Shown: positions 21,001-24,000 of the stretch, piece by piece | How the letters are laid out: each line of letters opens with the position of its first letter | Position numbering within the stretch: the first letter of the stretch is position 1 | NCBI RefSeq assembly: GCF_056712565.1 | Contig: NZ_CM160072.1 | Reading direction: 5' to 3' (one strand) | Length of the DNA: 64,000 nucleotides | Made by a program: the position numbers

Positions 21001-24000
21001 TGATATTGAACGCTATATAAATGACTGCAGTTACTTTGTTTTTTCTGCTGCTAAAGTTGTTAAAGGCGTGATTCAATGCATTGGTTACATTGACAAAAAT
21101 AACAAAGCAAGTTGCGATGAATTTTATTCAGGCAGCTATGAATGCTTGGATGATGATCAGGAAACACTGAACTATTTAAATGAATCATGCGCAGAGGGTA
21201 TAGACGCTGATAAAGATCTCATCAGGAAGAATGAGTTATTAGCCTTATCCCTGAAGGAATTGTATCAACTTCTCGTTTCAAAAAAATAACAAGTAATACG
21301 GCGAGCGATATGACGTGCCATGGGATATCCGCACCCAGCAGCATGTTGTCTCCACGATGTCCGCAGTTCGCTCATAATAGACATTCACTACAGTTATAGT
21401 AGAAGGTATGCATGCTGCTGAGTGGGGAAAGTGTGAAAGAAAAGAAGACAGCTGCTTTGTTTGTCGTCACGTTTATCTTCATTGGCTATGCAAGTCGTAA
21501 TACAAGGCGGGACAAAACTGAGACACATAAGGCCTCGCAATGGCTTGCAAGGCCACACATGTATTGAGATGTTAATAAAATGTAGACTTGTAATTTTGAT
21601 ATAAATGGTAGAGAAAATCTTTCCCCAAAATAAAAACGAACGTCAATGAAATCAAACGGTTGAATAAAGTTGATTTTGGCTAATACAAAGACAAGAAAAT
21701 AATATTTATGATTAAATATCAGCGAGTTGAATACATAATTTTTATATACTGCTGCGCCATATGGGCTGGACTGAAGCCGCAGACCTGATTGTTAAAGGTA
21801 TGGAAGGTGCAATCAACGCGAAGACCGTAACCTATGACTTCGAACGTCTGATGGAAGGCGCTAAACTGCTGAAATGTTCAGAGTTTGGTGACGCGATCAT
21901 CAAGAACATGTAATCTCTACATGTGTTAAATATTGAAACGGGCGTATAACACGCCCGTTGTTTTTATAAATATGTTAACCGTTATAAAATAACGTATCAA
22001 AAGTCAAGTGAACACATTTCAAATATCAATTTGATCGTATTGGTCTGGTGATTATTTATGGGGAGCAATAAAAAGACAGTATTAATCATCCATAGGGATA
22101 GTCTCTGCACTTTTATTTCCATTATGCTAATGCCTTACTGAATTATGAAGCATTTTTTAAGCTCCCAACTTTAGCTAGATTAATGGTTTATTATTTTCTA
22201 CATCTTCAATATATAAAAGCGTATTATCAATGGCGTAGTAACTGCGTTTGTTATGATTAACATCAGTAACCCACCGGAAAACGCCAGCGCCTGCCAGTGT
22301 TGAACAGTATTCCCGAAATGTAGATTTTCCGCGAATATGAAGCAATGCGGCCTCTTTTATTTTAGCTGGGTTCTTGGTCGTACTAACTTTTAACAGGTTC
22401 CTGGTTCCTCTTAATAACAAAACCGTGTCATCGTGAGTAATAATTCTGATGTTATCCGTAGCCAGATAATAAATGTAATGTGCAATACGGTGATGTTTTA
22501 ATTCTGAATAAAACCAGGAGAAGTTTTGCTCTTTTCTCACTTGCTCAAACATCTTTTGAAAAACAACGACCTGATCCATCAGGATAATAACCTCTTGTTA
22601 GGTGTGAGACTGCGTAGTGTGCACGATCGGTTTTACCACTTCAATCTGGTCTGTCCTTTGGCTGTGATATGTACAAAGTGTGAAAGGGGGATTACCTGAA
22701 TTCTCCCGGTGGGCATTTTGCAACGGACCAGCTCCGCTACAAACGCTGGTGTGGGTTCAGATTATAACATTCTGTCTAAGGGGCGGGATAAAGGTGAATT
22801 TAGGGGGCATGAAAGATGACTTTATAACCTTGCTCACCCCAGTGTTGTAAAAGTTCGTTTTGCCTTCTCGTTGGTGCCATGCCTGTCCAGACAATCAATG
22901 TTTGCGTTGGGAACAGTTCCGGGCGCGGCGATTCAATGGGATCAGCAAGAACAGAAATGTGCCATCCTGACAATGATAAACGCCATGCTTCCAGCCACAA
23001 TCGTGCTCTCTCTTCAACATTCCACGCCATCAGAATGGCCTCTTTACCGGGCTTACGGCGCATTTCGAAAAGTGAGGCCGCTGCGTATTCAATTAATGCG
23101 CCGTCAAACATACTGCTCATAATGCGGGAGGTGTTGTGATCAAGCACGAGACGCTGGCGAACAGGAAGGTAAACATGATTAATCAATTGATCTACTGGGT
23201 ACTCTCGACCCAGTGAAATAATTCGCGCGCGTAGTTTGGCTGGATTAGCCATACGAAGAATTGACATCATCTCTTCTTGCAGGCGGTTCCAGTCATCTTG
23301 CGTATCCTGGCTGGTAGTTTCCAGTAATGCTTTAACTTTGCCTACAGGAACGCCATTACTTATCCAACGCTTAATCTCTTCGATGCGTTGTATGTCTTCT
23401 TCATCAAAGAGTCGGTGTCCGCCTTCACTGCGTTGTGGTTTTAACAAACCGTAGCGGCGTTGCCAGGCCCGGAGAGTGACAGGATTAATCCCGCAACGTT
23501 CAGCAACATCACCAATGCTGTAATAAGCCACAATTCCTCCTTGCGATCATAAATCTCCGTCGCCTCTACACGACCCAATAATACTTTGTACAATATATGC
23601 TAAAATTGTACAAAGTATAAATAAGATTTCAGCTAAATTGGATGAAACATTATTTTTAATGTGGATTAAATTAAAACATAACGTATTCATTTTCACGATG
23701 ATTTCCAGAAATCATGCGAAATAATGTGCTGAAAATTATTTTTTCTCCGGCCACGCAACTGAAGGGATACCATTCAATTTAGCTTTGGAAAACAGATCTC
23801 CCTGAAACATCTCAATTCCTGCAGATTCAAGCCACATCCACTCTTCTGGTGTTGCCACGCCCATAGCAGAGACTTGAATTTCAAGTGATGTACAGCATTT
23901 CATGATCGCCTGAATAATTGCCTGCCGTGGTCCGCTTTTATGAACATTGGTAATCAATTCCTGACTGATTTTAATTCTGTCAGGCTGGAAGCGTGACAGG

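What the first reader, a model, noticed from the sequence alone, without database searches (positions are those of the whole stretch)
21749..21966. Prophage right boundary is a duplicated icd 3' end (e14-type integration site)
A 55-codon in-frame copy of the Icd C-terminus plus the icd terminator appears with non-icd AT-rich DNA immediately upstream. This is the signature of integration into icd, where the phage supplies a replacement 3' end and the original is displaced. Here the site is occupied by a lambda-like, sit-carrying phage rather than e14.
Basis: partly seen in the sequence, partly recalled or inferred. Interest (0 to 1): 0.5.

Follow-up and report, generated by a model that had tools for sequence, protein, structure and literature searches.

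The report
Phage 21-type prophage attR in icd
This is the right-hand junction of a phage 21-like, sit-carrying lambdoid prophage inserted in the E. coli isocitrate dehydrogenase gene, where the host's original gene tail has been pushed aside; it is a textbook arrangement seen in about a third of complete E. coli genomes.

Summary
Window 21750..21913 is an in-frame copy of the last 54 Icd codons plus the stop. The icd terminator hairpin and its T-run follow (21937..21965). AT-rich non-icd DNA lies immediately upstream.

A four-way att comparison settles the reading:
- The 400 bp left of 21750 equal the phage 21 attP arm (400/400).
- From 21750 rightwards the sequence equals the empty attB of strain SF-166 (205/205).

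So the window copy is the host's original, displaced 3' end, and the phage supplies the copy now fused to icd.

Window 1..21964 is collinear with phage 21 (OL657228) at 99.1%. The whole window matches E. coli FDAARGOS_1304 at 99.92%. In that genome and in UTI89, an intact icd lies about 47 kb to the left, followed by an integrase with 3 differences from phage 21 Int and an identical Xis.

The window also holds the P arm: one arm-type dodecamer and two IHF-consensus sites.

However, this is the classical phage 21/e14 attB, described in the 1980s and 1990s. The attL junction occurs in 1675 of 5426 complete genomes and this exact attR in 734. It is already known and of low interest.

The parts
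1..21749 (+). Right-hand 21.7 kb of a phage 21-like lambdoid prophage: head, tail, J, side tail fibre, sitABCD and the b-region. Its left 26 kb, including int, xis and attL, lie outside the window.
   Evidence: A single collinear BLAST alignment of window 1..21964 to phage 21 (OL657228) 5586..27548 at 99.1%. Gene content comes from the annotation of UTI89, FDAARGOS_1304 and phage 21.
16383..19832 (-). sitDCBA iron/manganese ABC transporter, a cargo (moron) operon of the phage.
   Evidence: ORFs and the RefSeq annotation. The same operon occupies the same place in phage 21 and in free phages 4A7, ev017, PhiR63_2 and others.
20519..21289 (+). 256-aa hypothetical protein, the last sizeable phage gene before attR. 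It is the homologue of phage 21 CPT_21_31.
   Evidence: There was no convincing PADLOC hit.
21619..21630 (+). Arm-type integrase-binding dodecamer CTTTCCCCAAAA in the P arm of attR.
   Evidence: It is the only match to YYTTCCCCAAAA in the 64-kb window. Phage 21 has exactly four such dodecamers, one at the equivalent P-arm position (27203) and three next to int (27563..27599). The phage 21 record annotates those three as attP subsites.
21650..21662 (+). IHF-consensus site (AATCAAACGGTTG) in the P arm.
   Evidence: It matches WATCARNNNNTTR. Only 14 such matches occur on both strands of the whole window, and two of them fall within the 80 bp between the dodecamer and the core. IHF binding itself is inferred, not shown.
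21717..21729 (+). Second IHF-consensus site (TATCAGCGAGTTG), 20 bp upstream of the core.
   Evidence: Binding is inferred, not shown.
21750..21765 (+). Common core region (TGCTGCGCCATATGGG). This is the stretch identical in attL, attR, attB and attP that must contain the strand-exchange site.
   Evidence: The K-12 e14 attL/attR pair shares ATGCTGCGCCA at the same place, so the crossover lies within about TGCTGCGCCA.
21750..21913 (+). Displaced original host icd 3' end (the icd' pseudogene, B' side of attR): 54 codons plus the stop, read in frame from 21752.
   Evidence: It is identical to the empty-site icd of SF-166. It differs at 7 synonymous positions from the phage-supplied copy now fused to icd in UTI89. 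It is annotated as a partial pseudogene.
21937..21965 (+). The original icd intrinsic terminator: a 9-bp stem, a 5-nt loop and a T run.
   Evidence: Folding gives -21.7 kcal/mol, z = -4.6. A terminator is annotated at the equivalent place in the phage 21 copy.
21966..22579 (-). Host right flank, unchanged from the empty site: ymgL (21997..22122) and ycgX (22175..22579), followed by bluR and bluF.
   Evidence: The reconstructed attB is contiguous in SF-166 at 99.9%.

Best explanation
The region is attR (P-O-B') of a phage 21-like lambdoid prophage that integrated by tyrosine-integrase site-specific recombination into the attB inside icd, 165 bp from the gene's 3' end.

The phage attP reads, in order: an AT-rich P arm (one arm-type dodecamer and two IHF-consensus sites), the core, a surrogate copy of the last 54 icd codons with a terminator, three more dodecamers, then int and xis. 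Recombination at the core fuses the phage's surrogate 3' end onto the host icd body at attL, so Icd stays intact. It leaves the host's original 3' end and terminator stranded about 47 kb away at attR. That stranded copy, preceded by the phage P arm, is what the window shows at 21750..21965. It has no promoter or ribosome-binding site of its own and is a pseudogene.

Shown: the sequence relationships of the four att sites, the identity of the phage, and the presence of icd, int and xis at the other end in near-identical genomes.

Inferred: that Int, IHF and Xis bind the motifs named, and that this particular prophage can still excise.
For: Four-way att comparison:
- The attR left arm equals the phage 21 attP left arm, 400/400.
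- attR from the core rightwards equals the SF-166 empty attB, 205/205.
- The UTI89 attL left side equals attB left, 400/400.
- attL right of the core is the phage-type copy, followed by the dodecamer triplet and int.

The phage 21 GenBank record annotates the ICDH-like pseudogene, the terminator, the attP subsites, the tyrosine integrase and the excisionase in that order.

Identity of the prophage:
- Window 1..21964 is collinear with phage 21 at 99.1%.
- The UTI89 prophage Int differs from phage 21 Int at 3 of 380 residues, and Xis is identical.
- Free, sequenced phages (4A7, Lambda_4C10, ev017, Perceval, PhiR63_2) carry a 100% identical Int together with sitABCD and the icd fragment.

The other end:
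- The whole window is 99.92% identical to FDAARGOS_1304, which has icd, int and xis there.
- The Icd protein accession WP_000444487.1 is the same in the lysogens and in the empty-site strain.

Population:
- 2900 of 5426 genomes have a contiguous attB.
- 1675 have the icd/P'-arm/int junction.
- 734 have this exact attR junction.

[quoted passage not shown] It cites Wang et al. 1997 (phages 21 and e14 insert at the same attB) and Hill et al. 1989. PMC6379469 describes the e14 icd' duplication.
Against: - The left end (attL, int, xis, intact icd) is not in the window. It is inferred from genomes 99.5-99.92% identical to the window, not observed in the source genome itself.
- The phage-supplied copy in UTI89 is not identical to the one in the phage 21 type genome (156/165). 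The resident prophage is therefore a relative of phage 21 rather than phage 21 itself. Its early and immunity regions also differ from phage 21.
- Binding of Int and IHF to the motifs, and the prophage's ability to excise, were not tested.
Confidence: 0.96

Rival explanations
1. It is the right end of an e14 element or an e14-type (IntE-dependent) prophage, as in E. coli K-12.
For: The attB is the same and the boundary falls at the same position, 165 bp from the icd 3' end, as K-12 icdC. The integrases belong to the same family, at 60% identity.
Against: - The DNA left of the core is 400/400 identical to phage 21 and is unrelated to the e14 arm.
- The integrase at the other end in near-identical genomes is 99.2% identical to phage 21 Int and only 60% identical to IntE.
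- No e14 genes (lit, pinE, mcrA) are present. Lambda-type tail genes and sitABCD are there instead.
Confidence: 0.01
2. The polarity is reversed: the window copy is the phage-borne surrogate, and the copy fused to icd is the host original.
For: The copy fused to icd in UTI89 is closer to K-12's displaced icdC (6 differences) than the window copy is (12 differences).
Against: - The window copy and everything to its right are 205/205 identical to the uninterrupted icd 3' end of the closely related empty-site strain SF-166.
- The icd-fused copy is followed by the phage P' arm and int, and it shares its variant signature with free-phage attP copies such as 4A7.
- The resemblance to K-12 icdC is better explained if icdC itself derives from a phage-type copy.
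Confidence: 0.01
3. The junction is a fossil: the prophage is grounded (defective) and attR no longer takes part in excision.
For: - Many E. coli prophages are defective.
- The closest complete genome, FDAARGOS_1304, has a disrupted side tail fibre gene.
- UTI89 has small pseudogenes in the early region.
- No induction data exist for this strain.
Against: - All att parts are intact: the core is identical at attL and attR, and the P-arm dodecamer and IHF-consensus sites are identical to phage 21.
- int and xis are full length in the relatives.
- The window's structural genes are intact and 99% identical to a viable phage.
- Essentially identical phages have been recovered as virions.

This rival concerns present-day activity only. 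It does not change what the feature is.
Confidence: 0.25
4. The icd fragment is a local duplication or assembly artefact unrelated to a mobile element.
For: None beyond the bare existence of a gene fragment.
Against: - The identical junction occurs in 734 independently assembled complete genomes.
- The fragment starts exactly at the phage 21 core, with the phage arm on one side and the empty-site flank on the other.
Confidence: 0

Closest known systems
Lambdoid phage 21 (OL657228) and its attachment site in icd (Wang et al. 1997, J Bacteriol 179:5705, as cited in PMC12803456; genome in PMC9119081)
   Same: - Same attB and same core.
- P arm identical over 400 bp, with the same arm-type dodecamers.
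- Int 99.2% identical and Xis 100% identical in near-identical lysogens.
- Same late region, side tail fibre, sitABCD cargo and b-region, at 99.1% over 21.9 kb.
   Different: - The resident prophage in UTI89-like genomes is about 47 kb against 42.9 kb for phage 21.
- Its immunity region, Q/late-promoter region and part of the nin region do not align with phage 21, and it carries an ompC-like porin gene.
- Its surrogate icd copy differs from phage 21's at 9 of 165 positions.
Prophage NC-SV of AIEC strain NC101 (PMC12803456) and free phages 4A7, Lambda_4C10, ev017, Perceval and PhiR63_2
   Same: [quoted passage not shown] The free phages carry a 100% identical Int, the icd fragment next to int, and sitABCD.
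   Different: NC-SV itself was not compared at sequence level here. The svsR sRNA reported for NC-SV maps to cI, which lies outside this window.
Defective lambdoid element e14 of E. coli K-12 and its icdC pseudogene (Hill, Gray & Brody 1989, as cited in PMC6379469 and PMC12803456)
   Same: - Same attB in icd and the same 165-bp displaced 3' end.
- Same principle of a phage-borne surrogate gene end.
- Overlapping core (ATGCTGCGCCA).
   Different: - A different integrase specificity class: IntE is 60% identical.
- Different arms and a different terminator in the surrogate copy.
- The e14 copy changes two Icd residues in K-12 (D and E against E and K), whereas the phage 21-type copy here is fully synonymous.
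- Entirely different gene content.

Membership tests
Phage 21-type integration module (attR of a phage 21-like prophage in icd) | attB lies inside icd, 165 bp from the 3' end, and the core sequence is shared by attL, attR, attB and attP. | tested here: met
   The core TGCTGCGCCATATGGG is found once each in the window (21750), UTI89 attL, SF-166 attB and phage 21 attP.
Phage 21-type integration module (attR of a phage 21-like prophage in icd) | attR is the phage P arm joined at the core to the host's original icd 3' end. | tested here: met
   The left arm matches phage 21 at 400/400, and the right side matches the empty attB at 205/205.
Phage 21-type integration module (attR of a phage 21-like prophage in icd) | attP carries a phage-borne surrogate icd 3' end plus terminator next to int. 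| tested here: met
   This is annotated in phage 21 (27333..27497, terminator 27520..27550, int 27611..28753) and in 4A7. The same copy type is fused to icd in UTI89.
Phage 21-type integration module (attR of a phage 21-like prophage in icd) | Arm-type dodecamers YYTTCCCCAAAA lie on both arms. | tested here: met
   The P-arm copy in the window is at 21619..21630. The three P'-arm copies are seen at attL of UTI89 and in phage 21.
Phage 21-type integration module (attR of a phage 21-like prophage in icd) | A phage 21-type tyrosine integrase and excisionase lie at the attL end. | tested here: met
   Met in the nearest genomes only. UTI89 and FDAARGOS_1304 carry WP_000741335.1, which has 3 of 380 differences from phage 21 Int, and their Xis is identical. 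The left end lies outside the window, so it cannot be observed for the source genome itself.
Phage 21-type integration module (attR of a phage 21-like prophage in icd) | Int/Xis/IHF-dependent integration and excision at this site. | not testable with these tools
   This needs induction followed by PCR, or in vitro recombination.
e14 element | An IntE-type integrase and e14 arms. | tested here: not met
   The integrase is 60% identical to IntE. The arm next to the core is unrelated to the e14 arm.
e14 element | e14 gene content (lit, pinE, mcrA, stfE and others) adjacent to icdC. | tested here: not met
   The window has lambda-type tail genes, sitABCD and phage 21 b-region genes instead.
e14 element | Uses the attB inside icd, 165 bp from the 3' end. 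| tested here: met
   The boundary is the same as for K-12 icdC.

The most novel reading that the evidence does not exclude
The synonymous-variant pattern of the roughly 210-bp icd homology is mosaic between host and phage copies. Phage 21's copy carries the B2 host alleles over its first 58 bp. The UTI89 prophage copy and K-12's 'host' icdC share another signature. This suggests that phage 21-family phages repeatedly swap their surrogate icd ends with host alleles, by homologous crossover or gene conversion within the repeat, and so ferry icd 3' alleles between E. coli lineages. It also suggests that K-12 icdC plus iraM is the relic of an older integration of this kind. Replacement of icd 3' ends by phages 21 and e14 was, to my recollection, already discussed in the 1990s population-genetics literature, so even this reading would be an extension rather than a discovery.
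Probability: 0.4. Interest if true: 0.2.

Novelty: already known. Interest (0 to 1): 0.07.

Why it matters
It matters little beyond correct annotation. The feature marks the exact right boundary (21749/21750) of a phage 21-like prophage that carries the sitABCD iron/manganese uptake genes and, in the part outside the window, iss. These are fitness factors of extraintestinal pathogenic E. coli. It is a clean example of how a phage can use a protein-coding gene as its attachment site without inactivating it. The mechanism, the site and the phage family have been described since the late 1980s and 1990s, and the junction is present in hundreds of sequenced genomes.

Tried and rejected
- **Primary papers.** I tried to read Wang et al. 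1997 (PMC179457), Hill et al. 1989 (PMC210168) and Mehta et al. 2004 (PMC331406). None is held, so they are cited only as referenced by PMC12803456 and PMC6379469. My recollection of the 1997 abstract (minimal attP of 366-418 bp; a 209-bp icd homology) is marked as memory. It agrees with the 397-bp dodecamer span and the roughly 216-bp homology measured here.
- **First literature query.** The terms 'phage 21, icd, e14, integrase' returned nothing.
- **svsR sRNA.** I checked whether the prophage sRNA svsR (the analogue of e14 C0293) lies in the AT-rich arm. It maps to cI, outside the window.
- **Rfam scan of 19800..22300.** It gave only a sub-threshold sraA match (24.5 bits against a gathering score of 56, E = 0.81) overlapping the terminator on the opposite strand. 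I treated this as chance.
- **PADLOC scan.** Four small or hypothetical phage ORFs near attR gave nothing convincing.
- **Dodecamer statistics.** The count alone is not significant across 64 kb (1.57 matches expected with up to 1 mismatch). Its weight comes from its position and its identity with phage 21.
- **Rejected readings.** I considered and rejected an e14 right end, reversed polarity of the two copies, and a local duplication or assembly artefact (see the rival explanations).

Full report
**Observation**

Window 21749..21913 reads [54 protein letters not shown]. Apart from the first codon, this is the C-terminus of E. coli Icd. Nucleotide homology to the intact icd of UTI89 starts at 21750 (TGCTGCGCCATATGGG). 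It continues through the stop codon and a 9-bp G+C-rich hairpin with a T run (21937..21965; -21.7 kcal/mol, z = -4.6), and stops at about 21965. The 400 bp upstream are 35.7% G+C and unrelated to icd. Downstream lie ymgL, ycgX, bluR and bluF, the normal neighbours of icd in E. coli. RefSeq annotates the stretch as a partial isocitrate dehydrogenase pseudogene in identical genomes.

**Where the window comes from**

Window 21000..22700 is 100% identical to many phylogroup B2 ExPEC chromosomes, including UTI89, S88, APEC O1 and ATCC 11775. The complete 64,000-base window is collinear with E. coli FDAARGOS_1304 at 99.92%, with 45 mismatches and one gap. The source genome itself is not identifiable, so statements about the far end rest on these relatives.

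**The other end**

| Genome | Intact icd | Integrase | Excisionase | icd pseudogene |
|---|---|---|---|---|
| UTI89 | 1240103..1241353 | 1241467..1242609, 380 aa tyrosine integrase | adjacent | 1288610..1288777 = window 21746..21913 |
| FDAARGOS_1304 | WP_000444487.1 | WP_000741335.1 | WP_000088653.1 | annotated at the window-equivalent place |

The UTI89 coordinates give a prophage of about 47 kb. FDAARGOS_1304, the closest genome, has the same layout. The strains that top the attR search also top an attL-junction search, with the two junctions about 47 kb apart.

**Which copy is whose**

I aligned the four att sites at the shared 16-bp block.

| Comparison | Identity |
|---|---|
| attR (window) left of the core vs phage 21 attP | 400/400 |
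| attR from the core rightwards vs empty attB of SF-166 | 205/205 |
| attL (UTI89) left of the core vs attB | 400/400 |

Right of the core, attL carries a copy that differs from the window's at 7 coding positions (all synonymous), one position after the stop and one T in the T run. It is followed by three YYTTCCCCAAAA dodecamers and int.

So the window's copy is the host's original 3' end, displaced to attR, and the copy now completing icd came with the phage. The Icd protein accession is the same in lysogens and in the empty-site strain, so integration is phenotypically silent for the enzyme.

**Identity of the phage**

- The window segment 13600..21760 matches the classical lambdoid phage 21 (OL657228) at 99.8%.
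- Window 1..21964 aligns as one block to phage 21 positions 5586..27548 at 99.1%.
- The phage 21 record annotates, in order: sitDCBA, hypothetical genes, an 'ICDH-like' pseudogene (27333..27497), a terminator, three attP subsites with consensus YYTTCCCCAAAA, a tyrosine integrase and an excisionase.
- The UTI89 prophage Int differs from phage 21 Int at 3 residues and Xis is identical. By contrast, Int is only 60% identical to e14 IntE.
- Free phages isolated elsewhere (4A7, Lambda_4C10, ev017, Perceval, PhiR63_2) have a 100% identical Int, the icd fragment and sitABCD.
- The resident prophage is a relative of phage 21, not phage 21 itself. In UTI89 the immunity region, parts of the nin region and the Q region do not align with phage 21.

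**Anatomy of attR in the window**

| Element | Window coordinates | Evidence |
|---|---|---|
| Arm-type dodecamer CTTTCCCCAAAA | 21619..21630 | Only match in the window; equivalent to phage 21 position 27203 |
| IHF-consensus site 1 | 21650..21662 | |
| IHF-consensus site 2 | 21717..21729 | |
| Core | from 21750 | |

The two IHF-consensus sites are 2 of only 14 matches in the whole window. In phage 21 the four dodecamers span 27203..27599, which is 397 bp. As I recall it, Wang et al. 1997 reported an unusually large minimal attP of 366-418 bp, needed to accommodate a roughly 209-bp icd homology; the 397-bp span fits that. This is memory only, because the paper was not available.

The e14 attL/attR pair in K-12 shares ATGCTGCGCCA at the same place. 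The strand-exchange region common to both elements therefore lies within about TGCTGCGCCA. The orientation matches lambda: attL is B-O-P' next to int, and attR is P-O-B'.

**Mechanism**

Int, with IHF, recombines attP with attB at the core. Because the core lies inside a coding sequence, the phage carries a surrogate for everything downstream of it (54 codons plus the terminator). This keeps icd functional in lysogens. The host's own end is left promoterless at attR, and excision by Int and Xis restores it. The sequence relationships are shown here. Protein binding and current excision competence are inferred.

**How common and how well known**

| Junction | Complete E. coli genomes (of 5426) |
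|---|---|
| Contiguous (empty) attB | 2900 |
| icd / P'-arm / phage 21-type int (attL) | 1675 |
| This exact attR | 734 |

[quoted passage not shown] It cites Wang et al. 1997, Hill et al. 1989 and Brody & Hill 1988. A review describes the e14 icd' duplication, and the phage 21 genome announcement notes multigene virulence-factor morons. The finding is a correct reading of a well-known arrangement.

**Side observations**

- The variant table shows a mosaic pattern between host and phage copies.
- K-12 has a second, diverged copy of the icd terminator beyond iraM/ymgK, which joins the flank that follows the terminator directly in this window.
- Together these hint that K-12 icdC and iraM may be relics of an earlier phage 21-type integration. 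This lies outside the window and was not pursued.

**Verdict**

Novelty: already known. Interest is low.

Noticed in passing
window 21913..22175, compared with L003 (K-12) 17078..18204: The window has only about 260 bp between the icd' stop and ycgX, whereas K-12 has an extra 815-860 bp there carrying iraM and ymgK. In K-12 the icd terminator occurs twice: once after icdC, and again in diverged form after ymgK. The second copy continues into the flank that directly follows the terminator in the window. K-12 icdC plus iraM may therefore be the relic of an older integration at icd.
   Followed up: partly
window 21750..21965, with L002 9191.., L006 27334.., L005 and L003: The synonymous variants of the icd 3' homology are mosaic among host and phage copies. 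Phage 21's copy equals the B2 host allele for its first 58 bp. The UTI89 prophage copy and 4A7 share a signature with K-12's displaced icdC. The e14 copy is the most divergent and changes two amino acids. This suggests exchange between phage-borne and host-borne copies.
   Followed up: partly
window 20519..21289 (+) and 21412..21567 (+): A 256-aa hypothetical protein and a 51-aa putative membrane protein lie between sitA and attR. Both are conserved in phage 21 (CPT_21_31 and CPT_21_32), have no assigned function and gave no convincing PADLOC hit. They are transcribed towards the displaced icd terminator, which may now terminate them.
   Followed up: partly
window 13644..15710 (+): The side tail fibre ORF is intact here (688 aa) and in phage 21. 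In the closest complete genome, FDAARGOS_1304, it is annotated as broken into a fragment and a pseudogene.
   Followed up: no
window about 37180..37510 and about 51800..58250 (converted from FDAARGOS_1304 coordinates): By the FDAARGOS_1304 annotation, the host part of the window contains a hemolysin E (hlyE) remnant next to umuDC. It also has a six-gene iron ABC transporter / SAM-methyltransferase / ModD / TonB-dependent receptor cluster between treA and ymgE, and several autotransporter fragments near ymgD and ymgG.
   Followed up: no
L001 8852..9549 (UTI89), equivalent to window about 25850..26550: UTI89 carries an IS1A insertion between ymgA and ymgF that FDAARGOS_1304 lacks there. The window, which is collinear with FDAARGOS_1304, also appears to lack it.
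   Followed up: no
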